DNA of 64,000 nucleotides from Dictyostelium discoideum (taxonomy: Eukaryota): assembly GCA_000004695.1 (NCBI GenBank), contig CM000152.2, positions 5,312,001-5,376,000 on the forward strand, read 5' to 3'. Both the position numbers and the translations under genes were made by a program. Below, piece by piece: positions 37,087-45,409 of the stretch (position 1 is its first letter; every line of letters starts with the position of its first letter). The notes beneath the pieces were generated by a model, which saw nothing but the letters and a program-made list of their open reading frames with translations, did not search any database and had not been told where the DNA came from.

Positions 37087-37178
37087 ATGTCCACATTAAA
37101 AAAGTTTTCTATTAAAGGAGCGACAACAAGAATAAGGGATGGAGTTGGATTATATTTTGGTTTAAACGAAGAACAAAT

Positions 37179-37214
<36 letters not shown>

Positions 37215-38668
37215 GCAAAATAGTGATAATAATCAAGCCGACAATAACAATAGTAGTAATAGTAATAATAATAATAGTTATTATGAAGAAGATGAACCAT
37301 ATTGGATGAAAGATGATTTTTGGGAGAAAGCACCAAGATATAATAGAGGTAATGATATTGAGATGGATAGATATGAATCACCACCAGTTTATTCACCGCC
37401 ACAAAATAATCAAAACAAAGGCAATGGAGCAACATTAAATTCAACAGATTATTATCCAAGTGATGTGGTAACACCATCAGGAGAAACAGTAGCAAGTGGT
37501 GGTGGTGGTGGTGGTGGTGGTAATCCATATTTGGTAGGTGGCGATGATATGAATGATAAAATGATGATGGGTGGTGAAGGAGATGATGATGATGATGGAG
37601 CAACTCGTAGAGGTAGAGGTAGAGGTAGGGGTAGAGGCAGAGGCAGACCAGGACCAAATAATCAAGGAGGCGGTGGTGGTGGAGGTCGTACAGATGGCAA
37701 GAAACCATTCCGTCCATCAACATTAGGACGTGGTGTTTCATCATTATCATTGAAAGAAGATCACAGAGATATGGAACCACCAAAACAATTTGTACCATAT
37801 TTTATCATAGCGATCAGTTTAATTGATTTGGTAATGTTTATTTGGGAAATTATATACAATGGCGGATTTGAGCCATGGAAAACCAATCCATGGTTTGGAC
37901 CAAACTCTTACACTCTATTGGATGTGGGCGCAAAATATTCACCATTGATTTTGAATGGTGAATGGTGGAGATTCTTTACTCCAATCTTTTTACATGTTGG
38001 TATTTTCCATTATCTAATGAACATGGTCACTCAATTACGTGTTGGTATGCAATTGGAGAGAGCATATGGTGGTCATCGTATCGTGCCAATTTACTTACTT
38101 TGTGGTGTCGCTGGTAACTTGTGTAGTGCTATCATGTTACCAAATTCAGTTCAAGTAGGTGCTTCTGGTGCTATCTTTGGATTTTTAGGTGTACTTTTAA
38201 CAGATTTAATCAGAAATTGGAGTGTTTTAGCTAAACCTTGGTTAAATTTTGGTTCACTATTATTTAGTATTATAACTTCTTTTGCTGTTGGTTTATTTTT
38301 ACCAGGTGTTGATAATTTTGCGCATTTAGGTATGAATTTTCTAATTTTTTTTTTTAAAAAAAAAAAAAAAATGATTAAAGTTATTAACATCTCATTTTTT
38401 TTTTTAAAAAATAATAATAATAATAATAAAAACTACTAAAGGTGGTTTTATTGCAGGTATTTTAACAGCAGCAATTTTCTTGCCATCATTAACACCAAAG
38501 AGAGCAATTGGAAAACGTTTACTTTTACTTATGATTGTAATTCCATTGACTGTAGCATTATTTGTAGCATTATTTGTTGTATTTTATAAAAATATAGATG
38601 CAGATGAATGGTGTTTTGGTTGTAAATATATAACATGTCTTCAAGTATTAAGTTGGTGTAAGACTTAA
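37087..38668 (+). CDS. Rhomboid-family intramembrane serine protease. Exon 1 is 37087-38329, intron 38330-38441, exon 2 38442-38668.
   Basis: Catalytic GASGAIFG (GxSG) and, across the splice junction, AHLG|GGFIAG (rhomboid AHLGG histidine motif). Multiple TM helices. Long Gly/Arg/Gln-rich N-terminal region. Confidence 0.8.
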
Positions 38669-39023: not shown

Positions 39024-39505
39024 ATGACCGAAATTTTATCAAAAGAAATTTTAAAAGATATTAATGAGTTTATTGAATTTCAAATTAAAGATAAATCAAT
39101 TCCATGTATATCAGTATCAGTGGTTGCAAGGGATGATAGTAGTAAAAAGAAAGAATGTCATAACCTTTTTAAAAAGATTTTTCATCATAAAGATATTAAA
39201 ACACCAATTCCAACATTAGATAAAACATTATTTAGAGTTGCATCAGTTTCAAAATTATTCACATATGTTGCAATACTTCAACTTGTTGATAAAGGTTTAC
39301 TATCACTTGAAGATCCAGTAACTAAATATATACCTGATTTTCATCCAAAAAATCCACAATCAACAACTTATTCAAATAAAAAAGAATTTGAACCTGATCT
39401 TTATAAGAAAATTACAGTTTTTAATTTAATTAGACATACATCTGGTAAAGTATAATAGTTATTAATTAAACTATATTAAAAATAATATATATTATATTTA
39501 TATTA

Positions 39506-39557
<52 letters not shown>

Positions 39558-41834
39558 TTAGGATTAATTAGAGAACCAATTGAAGGTAATTATTTTAATG
39601 AAATTCAAAGTGATTTAATTACATTAGTTAAAACAATGAATGAATCATCATTGGTTAGTGAACCATGGACAGAACATAAATATTCAAATGCAGCAGTCGC
39701 AATTGCAGGTTATATTGTTGAAGTTGTTAGTGGTGAAACATTTCCAGATTATGTTGAAAAGAATATTTTAAAACCATTGGGTATGTTAAATTCTACATTT
39801 AAGAATGAATATGCTTATACAGAAGTAAAAGATGAAAATCAATTAAGAACAGCCACTGGACATATGTGGAGATATTGGGATGAGACTACAACCGATTTAT
39901 CAGTTTATAAAGAAGCACCATTAACTTATTTTGGTATGTTTCCAGCCGCTGGTCTTGCAACAACTGTTGATGATATTTCCAAGTTTTTACAATTCTTTTT
40001 ACAAGATGGTAAACCATTATTAAAGTATGATACTTTTGTTCAATTCCTAACTCAACAACCATTAAAGGCACCAATAAAACCAGAGAATATAGATACTTTG
40101 GAATTCCCATACGTTTACAACGAAAGTGCAGTTGCCCAAACACCAACATCAACTGGTACCTCAAGTTATGGTCTTGGTGTTGAAATTACTAATTTCTTTG
40201 GATACCAAATCGCAAGACATGGTGGTGCTGTCAATGGTTTTGCAACTGATTTTCGCGTATTACCAGAATTGGGTTTAGGTATATTCACTTGTTCAACTTT
40301 GGATGTATGTAATGCAGTATCACAACAAATCTCTGAATATATCACATGTCAATTGGCTAGTAGTTTTGTAAAGGAAACTCATAGTTTGGTTTCATTAAAT
40401 AAAGTTTCACTAAATAAAACTTTAGAATCAATTGAAAATAGAAAACAATTTTTAAATTCAACTTTACTTGCAACTGAAATTCCAGATTCACTATATGATA
40501 ATATTTCAGGTTATTGGTATTTACCAACAAGTGAACAACAACAAGAAGAAGAAACATTCAATGATAATGACTATGTTCAAATTATGAAATCTTATAATGG
40601 TATGGTTTATAGTAAAGATGTTGTATTATCAAAGTTGGCATTATTACCAATTGATAAAAAGACAGGTGAACAATTAATCATTACAGCTGATAGAATGTCA
40701 TGTGGTCAAGTGATGTTAAAAATTCCAAAGGATTTCAATTTCAATGATAAAGAAGAAGCAAAAAAATTGAAATTAAAGGATAAATACACCCGTGATTCTG
40801 AAGAGGCTCAACATAGTTTAATCTATTGTAAATATAAACCATTACCATTGAAATCTGAAATTACAATTCAACCACCTTTAACAGAGGAATTTAAAGATTT
40901 GATTGGATTTTATTCAGCTCGTGATCATATGGCAATTATTTTTGAAGAGAACGGTCATTTAAATTTCAATATTGAATGGTTATTCAATTATAAAATGAAA
41001 TTTTTATCAGCAGTACAACAAGGTGATACCTCAATTGTTCACTTTTTACTCTCACCAACTGCAATGTATAATAATGAAATCATTTCATTCCATATGAAAA
41101 ATGGTGTACCACTATTCTTATCACTTAGTGGTATTAAATTTAAATTTCAATCAATGTCAACTCAACAACAACAACAACAACCAGGTGTTTATCCAAAAGA
41201 TATATGTTCAAAAGCATTAGCTGAATCATTTAATACTCCATTCCCATTTGAGGATGAAAATGCAAGAATCAATCATAATTTAGTAGATTTATCAAGCATA
41301 TCACCAACTCTTAAATTTGATATTAAATATGCAACCACTGATAACTTTACAGGTATTCAACTTTATAAACAAGCAAAAGCATTTTTAAATAAAGATGCTG
41401 CTAAATGTTTATTATCAGCTCATAATTGGTTAGTAGAGAATTGGAATGTTGGTATTATAGTTTTCGATTCCTATAGACCATGGAATATCACATGGACAAT
41501 GGCAGAATCGGTTATACCAGAATTTAGAGGTCTATATGTTGCACCACCAACCAAAGGTTCAGTTCATAATCGTGGTGGTGCACTTGATATCTCATTATAT
41601 GATTTATCAAATGGTAAAGTAATTGAAATGGTTGGTGATTTCGATGAATTTAGTATTCGTTCTCATCGTTCTTATTTTGGTGGTTCAGAACTTCAACGTT
41701 GGTATAGAAAACTTTTAACAATTGCATTAATCAATAATAATTTCAGACCAAATGAACACGAATGGTGGCATTTTGATATAATTGTTGATAAACCATTAGC
41801 AGTTTTAAATTTACAATTTGATCAAATTAATTAA
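39024..41834 (+). CDS. Two-domain enzyme. N-terminal serine beta-lactamase/penicillin-binding-like hydrolase fused to a C-terminal VanX-type D-Ala-D-Ala dipeptidase (peptidase M15D). Exon 1 is 39024-39444, intron 39445-39561, exon 2 39562-41834.
   Basis: SxxK active-site motif FRVASVSKLF, and YSNAAVAIAGYIVEVVSGETF...LKPLGM typical of class C/PBP-like hydrolases. C-terminus DIKYATTDNFTGIQLYK...DSYRPWNITW...GSVHNRGGALDISLYD...EHEWWHFD matches VanX/DdpX zinc-dipeptidase motifs (HxxGxAxD, EWWH). Donor G|GTAAAG, acceptor tttag|GA; the intron carries (ATT)n. Confidence 0.85.
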
Positions 41835-41947: not shown

Positions 41948-42760
41948 TCAATATTTTGATCTTTTTTTTAATTTTTTTTTATCTAAATTATCAGGTTCTT
42001 TTTTTATTGATTGAGATTGAATGATTGAAGTTATTGTTTTTGAAATTTCTGGAGGAAAAACCAATTTAGTTAGGGTACCATTTACTCTTTTAACTTTATG
42101 ATTTAAATAATCCAAATTACATAGATGACCTTTTCTATGAAGATAAATAAGTTTATCATTGTTTCTATCTTTTTGAACCAATAGATTAATGATTGATCTA
42201 CCAATAATAAATTTATTATTATATTCTGGATATAGAGATTCAATCAATCTAAATGAACCAATTGTTGATGCATTTAAAATTGATAAATGAACAAGATTTA
42301 ATTTCTTATCGATTGGATTTGAAAAGTATTTACTCTTAAAATTGATAATAATATTTTCAATCATAAATAATTTATCTTTTGAAATTAAATAATTCATTAT
42401 TGTAAAAGGTGATAATAAATCTGAACTTAATAAATGACTTATAATATCCAATCTATTAAATGTTATCGAATTATTTAATATTGCTATGGTTTCAAATTCC
42501 CCATCATCATTAATATCACCAATATTTGAATAGGTTATACCATTATTACTATCTAAACTTTCAGTTTCCATAATATCACCTTCATTCTCTCCAATTATTA
42601 CTTCAACATTTTCAAAAATTTCATTTAATTGTTCATTATTATTATTAAATTGTTGATTATAATTATTATTATGATTATCAATATTATTATTATTTTGATT
42701 TTCAATATTATTAACCATAACATTTGTAGTCGTAGTTGTTGTAGTTACTGCTGTTGTTGG

Positions 42761-42791
<31 letters not shown>

Positions 42792-45409
42792 GAATTTTGA
42801 TTCGATTGATTTTTAAATGATAAATGTTTTGAAATTTCTAAAAATTGATCAAGATTTGAATATTCAAAAATTCTATTTATAATTGCTTGATCTAATTGAA
42901 TTAATGGTGAACCCTCTTTGTGAGTTGATTTTAAATATTCTACCAAATAATTTGGTGAGCCAAAATGAAGGAATAACGCTTGACACTTTTCAAATGTATC
43001 AAATGATGTAACCATTTTCTCTGCACTATAATAATATTGATATTTGAAGTTAATAAACAATTGATCGATAGTACCATTATCAGGATCCAATGTTAAACCA
43101 ATTCTATTTTTACAAGAGTATAAAATTAATTCTTTATATTCTTTAAAAAAGTAATTCATTACTTGATATCTAGTTTGATCCAACAATGAATAAACAATTG
43201 AAAATGGTAATTTCAATTGAAATTTAATAATTTGTAAAACTAAATAAATAATAATTTCATTTGAATAATCATTATTAATTAAAGATTTTGTAAATTTTTT
43301 TAAAATATAGTGATTATTTAATAAAACAATTTTTTCTAATATTGATTTTTTTGATGATGAACAACAACCCAAAGGAGGTGAATTTGGTAATGATGATGAA
43401 GTTGTAGTAGATATATTTGAATTATTATTATTATTATTATTTGAATTTAAATTATTATTATTTAAAGTTAAAATTAATAAATCCATTGAAAAATAATCAT
43501 TTGATTCATAAATATTTAAAATAAAAGATCTAAATAAAAATGATTGAATTCTAAATTTTTCCAAATGTGATATTGATTTAAAATTTATTGATTGATATAA
43601 TTGAATTGTTTCATTAAATGTCATTGATGATAAATTTAAGTCATTAAAAAATTTTCTTTTACATTGATTTGTAAGAATTTGATTTATATCATTATTACAA
43701 ATTTGATTAAAAATATTTATTTTATCTTGATTTGATTTACTTGTGATTGTATTTGATTTTCTAGTTTTAATATCTTCAATTTTTTTAGTTCTAAATTTTA
43801 ATAATAAATTAATCTTTTCCATTGAAACCCTTGTTAATAGAAAGCAAAATGTTTCATTTCTTTCAGAGTTTATTTCTTTTTGAAATTTTATTTTAAAATC
43901 TTGAACATTCTCCAATAGTGATTCGATAGTTTCAATTGGATAATAGATGAACAATAATTTTACAATGTAACAATGAACGTCATATAGTGATGTAAATCTT
44001 TTTAGGAATTGAATTACTTGATCAGTTGGTACGATTATTGATAATGGTTCGATAACTGATTCTTTGTTTAAAAAGTGTAATGATATATTACTCTCTATAA
44101 CATACTCCAATGCCATTAAATTGAAATGTCTAATAGTTTCAACATAAAAGAAAATTTGCATATCATTATATAAAGTTTTATATTGATCACCAATGATTGA
44201 TATGGTTCTACTGAATTTAAGATAATGTATAATTCTATCGACTTGGTTTTGTTTGAAAAAGTAATCTATAAAGAATGGGAAATACTTATGTTCATATCCA
44301 GATTTATATTTCTCTAGTAACTCTTCGATTGTTAATCTTCTATTTAAAAGTTCATTCTTTTTTGGTACAGTATCCAATACCAAACATTTTAAATTATCCA
44401 CATCATATTTGAATGGGAAAACATAATGAAATGGTTTATCATATGAACAACCTTCATTGGCAGAATAATAAACTAAAGGTATTCTCTCGGATGATAATTT
44501 ATCCAAAACATTCATTAAAATATTGTAATGATTAATTTGTGGATACTTTTTAATTAACATTTCTAAATTTACTTCTAATTCTTGTTCAATATATTTTAAC
44601 ATTTTCTCTGGATCATTTGATTTACATGCATTTTGAATTAATAATTCTTCATTATAACCTGTTGATGGTATTGGTTTCTTGATTTTACTTGATAATAATG
44701 ATGATGATGATGTTGTTGTTGTTGATGAATTAATATATGAATCAACTTGATTATGTATAAATTGAACAAAATCTAGAACTTGAAAATTCATTGATATAAT
44801 TGCATTGTCAACAATTTCTTTATCAGATATTATATCAATTACACCACCAATTGAATTATAATTTATTATACCGATAACACCTCCATTATTTGTATGCCAT
44901 TTATAATACATTTTTAAACTTTCAATTGGTGCTCCAACTAAACATACTCTAATATCATCCATTTGAAGTTTATAATTAATATATAATCTTTCCAAAATAT
45001 TTAAATATTTATTTGATTGATAAAGTTTGGAAATTGATAAACTAGTAATATCCAATGGATAATGTGACTCTATCTTATCGGACAAAAGGTTCAATGCATT
45101 CTTTGAGATCATAATATCAATTGAAACTAAATTTTCAAATTTCATTCTATTACCCAAATATAATTCATCTCTATTTTTAAATACTAATGGTTTATCTAAA
45201 ACTCTGAATATTATATTTCTAAGATATAAATTTCTCCAAATTTTCCAAAATGATTTCTCCCCAATATTAAATCCAATATTAAGTTTTTTATTATTCTGAT
45301 GTTGTTGTCCCTCTTCACCATTATCTTGACCATTATCATTTCTTTTTCTTTTTTTATTTAACGGGTTCTCTCCATTAAAAAAGGTTTTTATTGTTTTTGT
45401 TGTTAACAT
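41948..45409 (-). CDS. Hypothetical protein, 1153 aa, single exon
   Basis: Long uninterrupted minus-strand ORF with Dictyostelium codon usage and internal poly-Thr/Asn tracts. I recognise no conserved domain. Confidence 0.6.

What the first reader, a model, noticed from the sequence alone, without database searches (positions are those of the whole stretch)
39024..41834. Fusion of a serine beta-lactamase/PBP-like hydrolase with a VanX-type D-Ala-D-Ala dipeptidase in a spliced eukaryotic gene
Both halves carry the catalytic signatures of bacterial peptidoglycan-terminus enzymes: SVSK and YSN in the N-terminal domain, and DxxYATxDNFTG, SVHNRGGALD and EWWHFD in the C-terminal M15D domain. A roughly 300-aa linker separates them and one canonical Dictyostelium intron interrupts the first domain. 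This architecture is a candidate horizontally acquired module, plausibly used to digest prey-bacterial cell wall or to detoxify D-Ala-D-Ala. I know of no described eukaryotic protein with this fusion.
Basis: partly seen in the sequence, partly recalled or inferred. Interest (0 to 1): 0.8.

Follow-up and report, generated by a model that had tools for sequence, protein, structure and literature searches.

The report
Bacterial D-peptide hydrolase gene in Dictyostelium
This is a real, already annotated but unstudied Dictyostelium discoideum gene: a bacterial enzyme with two active sites (a penicillin-binding-type serine peptidase and a VanX-type D-Ala-D-Ala dipeptidase) that social amoebae took from bacteria already fused, probably to break down D-amino-acid peptides from the bacteria they eat.

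Summary
Joining 39024-39444 to 39562-41834 (117-nt GT..AG intron) gives an 897-aa protein. It passes Pfam Beta-lactamase (E=1e-45) and Peptidase_M15/VanX (E=5e-24) with every catalytic residue intact.

The interpretation needs three corrections.

1. The protein is 100% identical to RefSeq XP_002649152.1 / UniProt C7G020 ("beta-lactamase family protein"). Orthologues were found in nine named dictyostelid species spanning both orders.
2. The fusion did not arise in a eukaryote. At least 566 bacterial species genomes matched, and 71 of the 80 best loci match query residues about 2-16 to 879-897 (Gemmatimonadota, Planctomycetota, Acidobacteriota, Bacteroidota). So the already fused gene was transferred once, before dictyostelids radiated. 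No other eukaryote appeared in either listed top-120 set.
3. The "300-aa linker" is not a linker. It is a helical connector plus two conserved beta-barrels. Barrel 1 resembles the lipocalin-like domain of Pab87/DAP-type D-peptidases. Barrel 2 plus M15D also exists as a free-standing secreted bacterial protein.

Most bacterial members carry signal peptides and all 12 dictyostelid proteins lack one. A cytosolic enzyme for small D-peptides is therefore more likely than a secreted wall-lytic one. Function is inferred, not shown. Interest is modest.

The parts
39024..39444 (+). Exon 1 (aa 1-140 plus the first base of codon 141). It holds the start of the S12 serine-hydrolase domain and has no signal peptide.
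   Evidence: sequence, ORF, splice; 100% identity to XP_002649152.1; no N-terminal hydrophobic segment.
39243..39254 (+). Motif I, S74-V-S-K77 (nucleophile Ser and general-base Lys).
   Evidence: S74 and K77 are invariant in 82 sequences.
39445..39561 (+). Spliceosomal intron: 117 nt, GTAAAG...TTTTAG, 96% A+T, phase 1, splitting Gly141.
   Evidence: The junction restores the conserved HTSGLIRE.
39562..41834 (+). Exon 2 (aa 141-897 plus the TAA stop), one uninterrupted reading frame through all remaining domains.
39681..39689 (+). Motif II, Y181-S-N183.
   Evidence: Invariant in the family alignment.
40218..40226 (+). Motif III, H360-G-G362. It is of the His type, as in Streptomyces R61 DD-peptidase (H298).
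   Evidence: The R61 H298 comparison is stated in PMC12903863.
40317..40745 (+). Helical connector plus beta-barrel 1 (aa about 393-535), the lipocalin-like domain typical of S12 D-peptidases.
40746..40871 (+). Variable, dictyostelid-specific insertion between the barrels (aa about 536-577). Model confidence is low when the middle region is modelled alone.
   Evidence: pLDDT below 50 at residues 163-172 of the sub-model (aa 557-566); alignment gaps here.
40872..41156 (+). Beta-barrel 2 (aa about 578-672), carrying the family signature (bacterial consensus LIGEYGWDH..LYI.E...L..LIEW).
   Evidence: G589, Y591, E602, E612, Y643, E646 and F667 are invariant. A profile of the middle region finds 637 cluster representatives. 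The same barrel precedes M15D in free-standing 342-347-aa bacterial proteins.
41157..41255 (+). Short connector with a Q6 tract (aa 673-705).
   Evidence: pLDDT dips in this region.
41256..41831 (+). M15D (VanX/DdpX-type) zinc D-Ala-D-Ala dipeptidase domain (aa 706-897).
   Evidence: PF01427 E=4.7e-24. DdpX model at 112 bits. VanX structure 1r44 at E=1e-15.
41475..41477 (+). R779, equivalent to VanX R71.
   Evidence: Alignment to 1r44. Invariant.
41559..41588 (+). S807-VHNRGGAL-D816. H809 and D816 correspond to the VanX zinc ligands H116 and D123.
41760..41777 (+). E874-WW-H877-FD. E874 corresponds to the VanX catalytic base E181 and H877 to zinc ligand H184.

Best explanation
**What it is.** The gene encodes a four-module enzyme that dictyostelids inherited as one ready-made piece from bacteria. 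The order is: an S12 serine peptidase with a penicillin-binding-protein fold, a helical connector with lipocalin-like barrel 1, barrel 2, and an M15D zinc D-Ala-D-Ala dipeptidase.

**Shown.**
- The architecture, the intact catalytic residues of both sites, and the confident compact fold.
- The same colinear architecture in many bacteria.
- Monophyly of the dictyostelid copies and their presence in both dictyostelid orders.
- Loss of the signal peptide, gain of an intron, and host-like codon usage.

**Inferred mechanism.**
- In bacteria the exported enzyme scavenges D-amino-acid peptides such as peptidoglycan stem peptides.
- The S12 module, whose closest solved relative Pab87 has D-aminopeptidase and DD-carboxypeptidase activity on muropeptides, trims D-residue-containing peptides through an acyl-serine intermediate.
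- The M15D module hydrolyses free D-Ala-D-Ala with a zinc-activated water.
- In the amoeba the signal-less protein most likely sits in the cytosol. There it would finish the breakdown of small D-Ala-containing peptides released from digested prey, for nutrition or clearance. It would not lyse cell walls.
For: **Domains and residues.** Pfam hits. S74, K77, Y181, N183, H360, G362 and R779, H809, D816, E874, H877 are invariant across 12 dictyostelid and 70 bacterial proteins. The last five map onto VanX R71, H116, D123, E181 and H184.

**Fold.** The full-length model has pLDDT 91.7 and pTM 0.92. The best PDB relatives are S12-plus-barrel enzymes: IS11, the Lip3 DL-peptidase, Pab87, SurE and DAP.

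**Pab87 activities.** D-aminopeptidase and DD-carboxypeptidase activity on muropeptides, and a proposed role in environmental D-peptides (PMC2651629).

**Bacterial family.** The listed bacterial hits carry both Pfam domains, and 566 of 600 candidate stretches in species genomes encode a relative. The middle domain is family-specific.

**Neighbourhoods lean towards peptide and D-amino-acid catabolism (of 85 loci).**
- Extra S12 paralogues in 29 loci.
- MR_MLE racemase/epimerase-superfamily genes in 14.
- Amino-acid permeases in 11.
- TonB-dependent receptors in 8.
- GNAT acetyltransferases in 7.
- Tricorn-type and S15 peptidases in 6 each.
- One locus adds Peptidase_S13 and a D-Ser-dehydratase-family gene.

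**Single ancient transfer.**
- Dictyostelids are monophyletic in 30 of 30 bootstraps for each of the three regions.
- Only dictyostelids score high with a dictyostelid profile (at least 1301 bits, then 623).
- GC3 is 13%, like the neighbouring genes.

**Signal peptide.** Present in about 64 of 70 bacterial proteins and in 0 of 12 dictyostelid ones, by a crude hydropathy test.
Against: - No biochemical, expression or localisation data exist for this protein or any member of the fusion family, and none was found in the literature.
- The bacterial gene neighbourhood is not conserved. The commonest non-paralogous neighbour occurs in only 14 of 85 loci, so guilt by association is weak.
- S12 enzymes also include esterases, and the top Foldseek hit, IS11, is one.
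- The M15D domain scores below the NCBIfam equivalog cut-offs for DdpX (112 against 176) and VanX (69 against 320), so substrate identity is not guaranteed.
- Cytosolic location is inferred only from the absence of an N-terminal hydrophobic segment. The test was a crude hydropathy window, not a trained predictor.
- The donor lineage and the rooting are unresolved.
Confidence: 0.55

Rival explanations
1. Same acquired enzyme, different substrates. It would act on bacterial non-ribosomal D-amino-acid peptides or lipopeptides, or the S12 module would act as an esterase. The role would be defence or detoxification rather than peptidoglycan-peptide salvage.
For: The third-best structural match is Lip3, an S12 DL-peptidase that cleaves lipopeptides in an amoeba-bacteria interaction. 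The top hit IS11 and EstU1 are esterases. Bacterial neighbourhoods are heterogeneous.
Against: - An intact VanX/DdpX-type site has been co-conserved with the S12 site in every one of the 82 aligned members. This is hard to explain unless D-Ala-D-Ala-like dipeptides are relevant.
- Lip3 uses KGG in motif III and a different C-terminal domain, whereas this protein has HGG and Pab87/DAP-like barrels.
Confidence: 0.2
2. A secreted or phagosomal wall-degrading enzyme that attacks prey peptidoglycan directly.
For: Both domain families act on the D-Ala-D-Ala end of peptidoglycan precursors. Dictyostelium is a bacterivore. The bacterial homologues are exported.
Against: - None of the 12 dictyostelid orthologues has a signal peptide or an N-terminal extension.
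- The upstream 355 bp are 11% GC, and no ORF of 50 aa or more that could supply one is listed there.
- M15D enzymes are dipeptidases, and S12 carboxy- and aminopeptidases do not solubilise sacculi (established knowledge, not tested here).
Confidence: 0.1
3. The two catalytic halves were acquired or evolved separately and fused within the eukaryote. In that case the architecture would be a eukaryotic novelty.
For: Free-standing barrel 2 plus M15D proteins and S12-lipocalin proteins both exist, so a fusion event did occur somewhere.
Against: - Bacterial proteins of 770-830 aa are colinear with the Dictyostelium protein over 99% of its length. They share the family-specific middle-domain residues.
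- All three regions give the same dictyostelid clade.
- The fusion therefore predates the transfer.
Confidence: 0.02
4. An artefact: bacterial contamination in the assembly, two separate genes, or a decaying pseudo-enzyme.
For: None beyond the bacterial affinities of the sequence.
Against: - The gene has a spliceosomal intron, a GC3 of 13% equal to its neighbours, and typical AT-rich Dictyostelium flanks between a rhomboid gene and another host ORF.
- It lies on a 6.4-Mb contig, with near-identical cluster members (within 90% identity) in several D. discoideum and D. citrinum assemblies.
- There is no stop codon between the domains.
- All catalytic residues are kept in every dictyostelid sequence found, across both orders.
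Confidence: 0.01

Closest known systems
Unnamed bacterial family of S12 serine hydrolase-barrel-barrel-M15D fusion proteins. Sources label them "serine hydrolase", or [quoted passage not shown]. An example is Zavarzinella formosa WP_020475192.1.
   Same: Same domain order and colinear alignment over 99% of the length at about 30-35% identity. Same invariant residues in both active sites and in the middle domain.
   Different: The dictyostelid proteins lack the signal peptide. They carry lineage-specific insertions (aa about 105-125 and 536-577, and Q-rich tracts) and an intron, and they sit on a long stem branch at 1.4-1.5 substitutions per site from all bacterial phyla. I found no characterised member of the family.
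Pab87 / CubicO protease of Pyrococcus abyssi (PDB 2qmi) and D-aminopeptidase DAP of Ochrobactrum anthropi (1ei5).
   Same: Pab87 is the best solved sequence relative of the N-terminal part (E=2.4e-58). Both share an S12 catalytic domain, a connecting helix and a lipocalin-like beta-barrel. Both are D-stereospecific peptidases, and Pab87 removes the terminal D-Ala of muropeptide pentapeptides.
   Different: Neither has an M15D module or the second barrel. Octamer formation, which defines CubicO, was not testable. Sequence identity is only 13-19% in the structural alignments.
VanX (Enterococcus faecium, PDB 1r44) and DdpX (E. coli) D-Ala-D-Ala dipeptidases, MEROPS M15D.
   Same: Pfam PF01427 is passed. 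R71, H116, D123, E181 and H184 are all conserved.
   Different: Here the domain is the C-terminal module of an 897-aa protein. It is about 15 residues shorter than VanX between R71 and H116. It scores below the DdpX and VanX equivalog cut-offs. It sits in an organism without peptidoglycan, so it has no link to vancomycin resistance.
Free-standing bacterial barrel-M15D proteins of 342-347 aa (P0317, P0323, P0326).
   Same: They align with aa 584-896 (barrel 2 plus M15D) at 33-36% identity and carry the barrel-2 signature directly after their own signal peptide.
   Different: They have no S12 module.
Other bacterial peptidoglycan-peptide enzymes acquired by eukaryotes. An example is the D. discoideum Peptidase S13 penicillin-sensitive carboxypeptidase DDB_G0271902, which is in the published candidate list of horizontal transfers.
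   Same: A bacterial cell-wall-peptide hydrolase retained in dictyostelids (PMC3188802).
   Different: It is a different family (S13). The present gene is not in Table 2 of that paper, as far as the passages retrieved show.

Membership tests
Pfam Beta-lactamase PF00144 / MEROPS S12 serine hydrolases | Profile match above the curated cut-off | tested here: met
   156.4 bits against a cut-off of 27, aa 25-386.
Pfam Beta-lactamase PF00144 / MEROPS S12 serine hydrolases | Motif I SxxK, motif II YxN, motif III (K/H)(T/S/G)G | tested here: met
   S74-V-S-K77, Y181-S-N183 and H360-G-G362. S74, K77, Y181, N183, H360 and G362 are invariant in 82 sequences. The motif definitions are as given in PMC12903863.
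Pfam Beta-lactamase PF00144 / MEROPS S12 serine hydrolases | Penicillin-binding-protein / class C beta-lactamase fold | tested here: met
   Model pLDDT 91.7. Foldseek gives E down to 2.6e-21 against S12 structures.
Pfam Beta-lactamase PF00144 / MEROPS S12 serine hydrolases | Acyl-serine catalysis and D-stereospecific peptidase activity | not testable with these tools
   Needs an enzyme assay.
Class C (AmpC) beta-lactamase proper | NCBIfam bla_class_C equivalog score | tested here: not met
   50.5 bits against a cut-off of 415. It is not a true beta-lactamase by this criterion.
M15D D-Ala-D-Ala dipeptidase (VanX/DdpX), Pfam PF01427 | Profile match above the curated cut-off | tested here: met
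   85.7 bits against a cut-off of 27, aa 713-881.
M15D D-Ala-D-Ala dipeptidase (VanX/DdpX), Pfam PF01427 | Zinc ligands His-Asp-His, catalytic Glu and transition-state Arg | tested here: met
   H809, D816, H877, E874 and R779 align with VanX H116, D123, H184, E181 and R71. All are invariant.
M15D D-Ala-D-Ala dipeptidase (VanX/DdpX), Pfam PF01427 | Equivalog-level identity to DdpX or VanX | tested here: not met
   DdpX 112.3 bits against 176, and VanX 68.9 against 320. It is a member of the family, not an equivalog of either enzyme.
M15D D-Ala-D-Ala dipeptidase (VanX/DdpX), Pfam PF01427 | Zinc-dependent hydrolysis of free D-Ala-D-Ala | not testable with these tools
   Needs an enzyme assay.
Bacterial S12-barrel-barrel-M15D fusion family | Colinear full-length alignment with all four modules | tested here: met
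   99% query coverage for many bacterial proteins. 71 of the 80 best genome loci match query residues about 2-16 to 879-897.
Bacterial S12-barrel-barrel-M15D fusion family | Family-specific middle-domain residues | tested here: met
   G457, G589, Y591, E602, E612, Y643, E646 and F667 are invariant. A profile of the middle region retrieves mainly 720-830-aa proteins, matching at about residues 350-600.
Bacterial S12-barrel-barrel-M15D fusion family | N-terminal signal peptide (exported enzyme) | tested here: not met
   0 of 12 dictyostelid against about 64 of 70 bacterial proteins, by a hydropathy test. I interpret this as secondary loss.
CubicO (Pab87-type) self-compartmentalising proteases | S12 domain, linking helix and lipocalin domain | tested here: met
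CubicO (Pab87-type) self-compartmentalising proteases | Octameric cube with a central proteolytic chamber; CubicO-specific motifs | not tested
   Oligomer state cannot be addressed here, and the motifs were not compared. I do not file the protein as CubicO.
Horizontally acquired bacterial gene in a eukaryote | Restricted eukaryotic distribution against a broad bacterial one | tested here: met
   Only the 12 dictyostelid-type proteins (10 named by a source, 2 unnamed) among eukaryotes appear in the top 120 of two searches. 566 of 600 candidate stretches in bacterial species genomes encode a relative. The searches are not exhaustive for unsequenced Amoebozoa.
Horizontally acquired bacterial gene in a eukaryote | Eukaryotic clade nested inside bacterial diversity in a rooted tree | tested here: inconclusive
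   The dictyostelids are monophyletic but equidistant from all phyla, in unrooted NJ trees only.
Horizontally acquired bacterial gene in a eukaryote | Genuine integration in the host genome | tested here: met
   Intron, host codon usage, host flanking genes and a location on a megabase-sized contig.

The most novel reading that the evidence does not exclude
**In the amoeba.** Dictyostelids would have kept, since before their radiation, a cytosolic enzyme with two active sites that disposes of D-peptides. This would imply that peptidoglycan-derived D-Ala peptides leave the phagolysosome and are metabolised in the amoeba's cytosol. It would be the first functional VanX-type D-Ala-D-Ala dipeptidase shown in a eukaryote.

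**In bacteria.** The parent family, common in Gemmatimonadota, Planctomycetota, Acidobacteriota and Bacteroidota genomes recovered largely from metagenomes, would be an uncharacterised exported enzyme. Its compact multi-domain body would couple an S12 D-peptidase to a D-Ala-D-Ala dipeptidase to recycle cell-wall necromass.
Probability: 0.35. Interest if true: 0.55.

Novelty: new member of a known kind. Interest (0 to 1): 0.3.

Why it matters
If the inferred function is right, the gene is a clean and ancient example of a predator taking a ready-made bacterial tool for handling the D-amino-acid part of its prey. It is not on the published list of D. discoideum horizontal-transfer candidates, as far as I could read it.

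It also points to a large bacterial enzyme family for which I found no characterised member. That family may contribute to turnover of peptidoglycan-derived D-peptides in the environments these bacteria inhabit.

It is not a new principle. Both catalytic modules, the S12-plus-lipocalin arrangement and bacterium-to-amoeba transfer are all known, and the gene itself is already annotated.

Tried and rejected
**Literature.**
- Six searches found nothing on this protein or on a beta-lactamase-VanX fusion. The terms were C7G020, XP_002649152, EEU04100, Dictyostelium with D-alanyl-D-alanine dipeptidase, VanX, or "beta-lactamase family protein", and Peptidase_M15 with fusion.
- One candidate paper (PMC3220658) was irrelevant.
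- The look-up I tried for the 2005 D. discoideum genome paper (PMC1352341) was not held. I used the 2011 update, whose retrieved table rows list Peptidase S13 and not this gene.

**Conserved operon in bacteria.** I clustered the ORFs of 85 loci. There is no conserved partner, only loose enrichment of peptide and D-amino-acid genes.

**Donor lineage.** NJ trees with named genomes leave the dictyostelids equidistant from all phyla.

**C-terminal domain search.** The 198-aa query returned only short proteins and not even the query's own full-length protein. It could not by itself test whether the halves had separate origins. A local BLAST over all fetched proteins showed fusion-type and free-standing M15D domains are about equally similar, at 49% and 48%.

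**Other dead ends.**
- Pfam has no model that covers the middle region, only weak DUF7586 and DUF3471 hits in some bacterial members.
- The afdb50 fold library was unavailable.
- Model coordinates are not exposed, so I could not measure the distance between the two active sites.

**Rejected readings.** A true beta-lactamase, contamination, two separate genes, a pseudogene, and an upstream exon supplying a signal peptide. The last was rejected on the 11%-GC intergenic region with no ORF of 50 aa or more, and because all 12 orthologues start at the mature domain.
Full report
**1. What is in the sequence**

The window is extremely AT-rich (22% GC; intergenic stretches 4-11% GC), as in Dictyostelium. 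Between 39024 and 41834 on the + strand lie two open reading frames in the same frame: 39024-39455 and 39636-41834.

Splicing out 39445-39561 joins them. The intron is 117 nt, GTAAAG...TTTTAG, 96% A+T and phase 1. The result is one 2694-nt coding sequence of 897 aa with no internal stop.

Homology supports the splice site. It regenerates RHTSG|LIRE, which contains four residues invariant in the family (H138, G141, R144, E145). The product is 100% identical over its full length to the RefSeq model. Without splicing, translation would stop at 39453-39455.

- SVSK at aa 74-77.
- YSN at aa 181-183. A second YSN at aa 116 sits in a non-conserved insertion and is a chance match.
- DIKYATTDNFTG at aa 727-738.
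- SVHNRGGALD at aa 807-816.
- EWWHFD at aa 874-879.
- In addition, the third S12 motif, HGG, at aa 360-362.

Pfam confirms both domains far above their curated thresholds. Beta-lactamase PF00144 covers aa 25-386 (E=1.4e-45, 156 bits against 27). Peptidase_M15 PF01427 covers aa 713-881 (E=4.7e-24, 86 bits against 27).

**2. It is an annotated gene**

The protein is identical to XP_002649152.1 / EEU04100.1 / UniProt C7G020, [quoted passage not shown]. Both Pfam domains are already precomputed for it in the searched collection.

Full-length orthologues at 42-87% identity occur in D. firmibasis, D. purpureum, Polysphondylium violaceum, Tieghemostelium lacteum, Acytostelium subglobosum, Heterostelium album, Cavenderia fasciculata and Synstelium polycarpum (two copies). 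Two further sequences carry no species name. D. citrinum copies sit in the same 90% cluster as the query. From my knowledge of dictyostelid classification, these genera span both orders, so the gene was present in the last common ancestor of Dictyostelia.

All 12 sequences keep every catalytic residue.

I found no paper that mentions the protein. In the passages I retrieved, the published table of D. discoideum horizontal-transfer candidates lists a different cell-wall enzyme, Peptidase S13 DDB_G0271902, and not this one (PMC3188802).

**3. The fusion is bacterial, not eukaryotic**

After the dictyostelids, the database search returns bacterial proteins that all carry the same two Pfam domains. 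They are mostly 770-830 aa long, and many align over 98-100% of the query at about 30% identity.

Of the 80 best loci, 71 match query residues about 2-16 to 879-897; the other nine are cut off or start later. My tally of 75 of the named loci by phylum is:
- Planctomycetota 22, including Singulisphaera, Tautonia and Zavarzinella.
- Acidobacteriota 22, counting one Aminicenantes genome.
- Gemmatimonadota 20.
- Bacteroidota 6.
- Ignavibacteriota 2, Verrucomicrobiota 1, and two bins labelled Alcaligenaceae. A Candidatus Eisenbacteria genome is also among the 80 loci.

An 82-sequence alignment (12 dictyostelid, 70 bacterial) has invariant residues in both catalytic domains and also in the region between them: G457, G589, Y591, E602, E612, Y643, E646 and F667. 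The three parts are therefore colinear and homologous throughout, and the fusion predates the transfer.

In neighbour-joining trees the dictyostelids form one clade in 30 of 30 bootstrap replicates. This holds for the whole protein and separately for the N-terminal, middle and C-terminal regions.

A profile built only from dictyostelid sequences retrieves the same 12 proteins at 1301 bits or more, then drops to bacterial fusions at 623 bits. No other eukaryote appears in the top 120.

The clade sits on a long stem, 1.4-1.5 substitutions per site from every bacterial phylum against 0.72 among the bacteria. The donor is unresolved.

Three observations rule out contamination and show the gene is fully settled in its host:
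- It has a spliceosomal intron.
- Its GC3 is 13%, against 12-20% in the neighbouring ORFs, and is uniform across the three regions.
- It lies between a rhomboid-family gene and another host ORF.

**4. The "linker" is two folded domains**

The full-length AlphaFold2 model is confident (mean pLDDT 91.7, pTM 0.92), which implies a compact multi-domain body. Between the catalytic domains it shows a helical connector (aa about 391-455) and two all-beta domains (strands at aa 478-529 and 589-670).

A profile of the middle region finds 637 cluster representatives among 1.84 billion proteins. The full-length hits are mostly 720-830 aa, with the match at about residues 350-600, so the region is largely specific to this family. 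Pfam has no good model for it, only weak DUF7586 and DUF3471 hits in some bacterial members.

Complete bacterial proteins of 342-347 aa, each with its own signal peptide, consist of barrel 2 followed by M15D. They align with aa 584-896 at 33-36% identity.

The architecture therefore reads as [S12 + helix + lipocalin barrel 1], the arrangement described for Pab87 (PMC2651629), joined to [barrel 2 + M15D].

**5. Catalytic competence**

In the alignment with the VanX structure 1r44, R779, H809, D816, E874 and H877 fall on R71, H116, D123, E181 and H184. From the literature on VanX, recalled rather than tested here, these are the transition-state arginine, the three zinc ligands and the catalytic base. 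All five are invariant in the 82 sequences.

The S12 triad of motifs is also invariant. Motif III is of the His type, as in the Streptomyces R61 DD-peptidase (H298; PMC12903863).

By NCBIfam the protein is not a class C beta-lactamase (50 bits against 415). It is not an equivalog of DdpX (112 against 176) or of VanX (69 against 320).

The closest solved relatives of the N-terminal part by sequence profile are:
- Pab87, E=2.4e-58.
- IS11 esterase.
- Flp.
- Lip3 DL-peptidase.
- EstU1.
- Alkaline D-peptidase.
- LACTB.
- R61 DD-peptidase.

No match listed from the PDB search contains both modules.

**6. Where and on what it probably works**

The bacterial homologues carry on average 37 residues ahead of the mature domain, with a hydrophobic core in 64 of 70. 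The dictyostelid proteins start about 10 residues before the first helix and have no hydrophobic segment. The test was a simple hydropathy window, not a trained predictor.

The 355 bp upstream of the ATG are 11% GC, and no ORF of 50 aa or more is listed there. There is no evident C-terminal targeting signal: the protein ends QFDQIN. A cytosolic location is therefore the most likely one. This is inferred, not shown.

The bacterial gene neighbourhoods are not conserved, but they lean in one direction. Of 85 loci:
- 29 carry further S12 paralogues.
- 14 carry an MR_MLE-superfamily gene.
- 11 carry an amino-acid permease.
- 8 carry a TonB-dependent receptor.
- 7 carry a GNAT acetyltransferase.
- 6 carry a tricorn-type S41 protease.
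- 6 carry an S15 peptidase.

In one locus (L002) the gene sits among the following:
- a SIS-domain regulator;
- an amino-acid permease;
- a GNAT acetyltransferase;
- an MR_MLE enzyme above the TIGR01928 cut-off (332 bits against 201);
- a Peptidase_S13-amidohydrolase protein;
- a D-Ser-dehydratase-family gene.

TIGR01928 is the o-succinylbenzoate synthase model. From memory, that group also contains N-acylamino-acid racemases.

Pab87, the nearest characterised relative of the S12 part, has D-aminopeptidase activity and removes the terminal D-Ala from muropeptide pentapeptides. Its authors propose it processes environmental D-peptides.

Taken together, the best-supported mechanism is a bifunctional hydrolase for D-Ala-containing peptides. 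The S12 site trims D-residue-containing peptides through an acyl-serine intermediate. The M15D site splits free D-Ala-D-Ala with a zinc-bound water. The barrels shape or gate substrate access.

In the amoeba this would complete the breakdown of small peptidoglycan-derived peptides from ingested bacteria. It would not attack walls. The architecture and evolutionary history are shown. The substrates, the coupling of the two sites and the location are inferred.

**7. Rivals**

- **Other D-peptides or esters as substrates.** Lip3-type lipopeptide cleavage and family VIII esterases are structurally close. However, the strict co-conservation of an intact VanX-type site argues that D-Ala-D-Ala-like dipeptides matter.
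- **A secreted or phagosomal lytic enzyme.** This conflicts with the missing signal peptide in all 12 orthologues.
- **A fusion made in the eukaryote.** Refuted by the bacterial full-length homologues.
- **Contamination, two genes or a pseudogene.** Refuted by the intron, the codon usage, the continuous frame and the conservation.

**8. Novelty and score**

Everything about the parts is known: S12, lipocalin-like barrels, M15D, and bacterium-to-dictyostelid transfer. The gene is already in RefSeq and UniProt.

Two things appear undocumented. One is that this particular gene is an ancient horizontal-transfer candidate carrying two intact D-Ala-directed active sites. The other is that the bacterial parent family, found in hundreds of species, has no characterised member that I could find.

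I file it as a new member of a known kind, with modest interest (0.3). The most novel reading still open is a cytosolic D-peptide disposal route in amoebae together with an uncharacterised bacterial family that recycles D-peptides. I give that a probability of about 0.35 and an interest of about 0.55 if true.

Noticed in passing
window 37087-38668 (+): The upstream gene encodes a rhomboid-family protein (PF01694, E=8e-32) with long poly-Q, poly-N and poly-G/RG tracts in its N-terminal half. The ORF breaks near 38440, and a second ORF at 38480-38668 looks like a final exon, so there is probably a short intron at about 38300-38480. I did not define the splice sites.
   Followed up: partly
window 41948-45409 (-): A convergent downstream ORF of 1153 aa, rich in Asn and Thr homopolymers, has no Pfam match at E<=0.001. 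Only 113 bp (3.5% GC) separate its stop codon from the stop of the fusion gene.
   Followed up: partly
window 39369-39377 (aa 116-118): A second YSN tripeptide lies in a dictyostelid-specific insertion (aa about 105-125, block pLDDT 67) and is not conserved.
   Followed up: yes
P0317, P0323, P0326 (bacterial proteins, 345-347 aa): These are complete secreted bacterial proteins consisting only of barrel 2 plus the M15D dipeptidase. The family signature (LIGEY..D.DTL.VLE) follows directly after the signal peptide. This suggests that barrel 2 belongs functionally to the dipeptidase module.
   Followed up: partly
P0013 (1350 aa); P0014, P0015, P0018, P0059, P0064, P0118 (1134-1139 aa): Longer bacterial variants of the fusion carry an extra Beta-lactamase2 (PF13354) or DUF3471 domain. 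With the dictyostelid profile they are the highest-scoring bacterial hits (623-548 bits).
   Followed up: no
L002 3650-15246 (metagenome contig ERZ25039470:contig_31095): A gene cluster that looks like D-amino-acid or peptidoglycan-peptide catabolism. It holds a SIS-domain regulator, an amino-acid permease, a GNAT, an MR_MLE enzyme above the TIGR01928 cut-off, the fusion gene, a 1090-aa Peptidase_S13-amidohydrolase protein and a D-Ser-dehydratase-family gene. A TonB-dependent receptor lies upstream.
   Followed up: partly
L004 4786-10337: Three consecutive beta-lactamase-family genes lie in one locus: 548 aa, 499 aa with DUF3471, and the 778-aa fusion. Extra S12 paralogues lie next to the fusion in 29 of 85 bacterial loci.
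   Followed up: partly
P0008 and P0012 (Synstelium polycarpum); P0006: Synstelium polycarpum has two paralogues, the only duplication seen among the dictyostelids. P0006 carries a C-terminal extension of about 45 aa after the conserved PVLN end, probably read-through in the gene model.
   Followed up: no
(tool behaviour): The word-indexed homology search with the 198-aa C-terminal domain scored only 185 candidates, all 347 aa or shorter. It missed the query's own 897-aa protein and all the fusions. Short-domain queries with this tool should not be read as showing that multidomain relatives are absent.
   Followed up: yes
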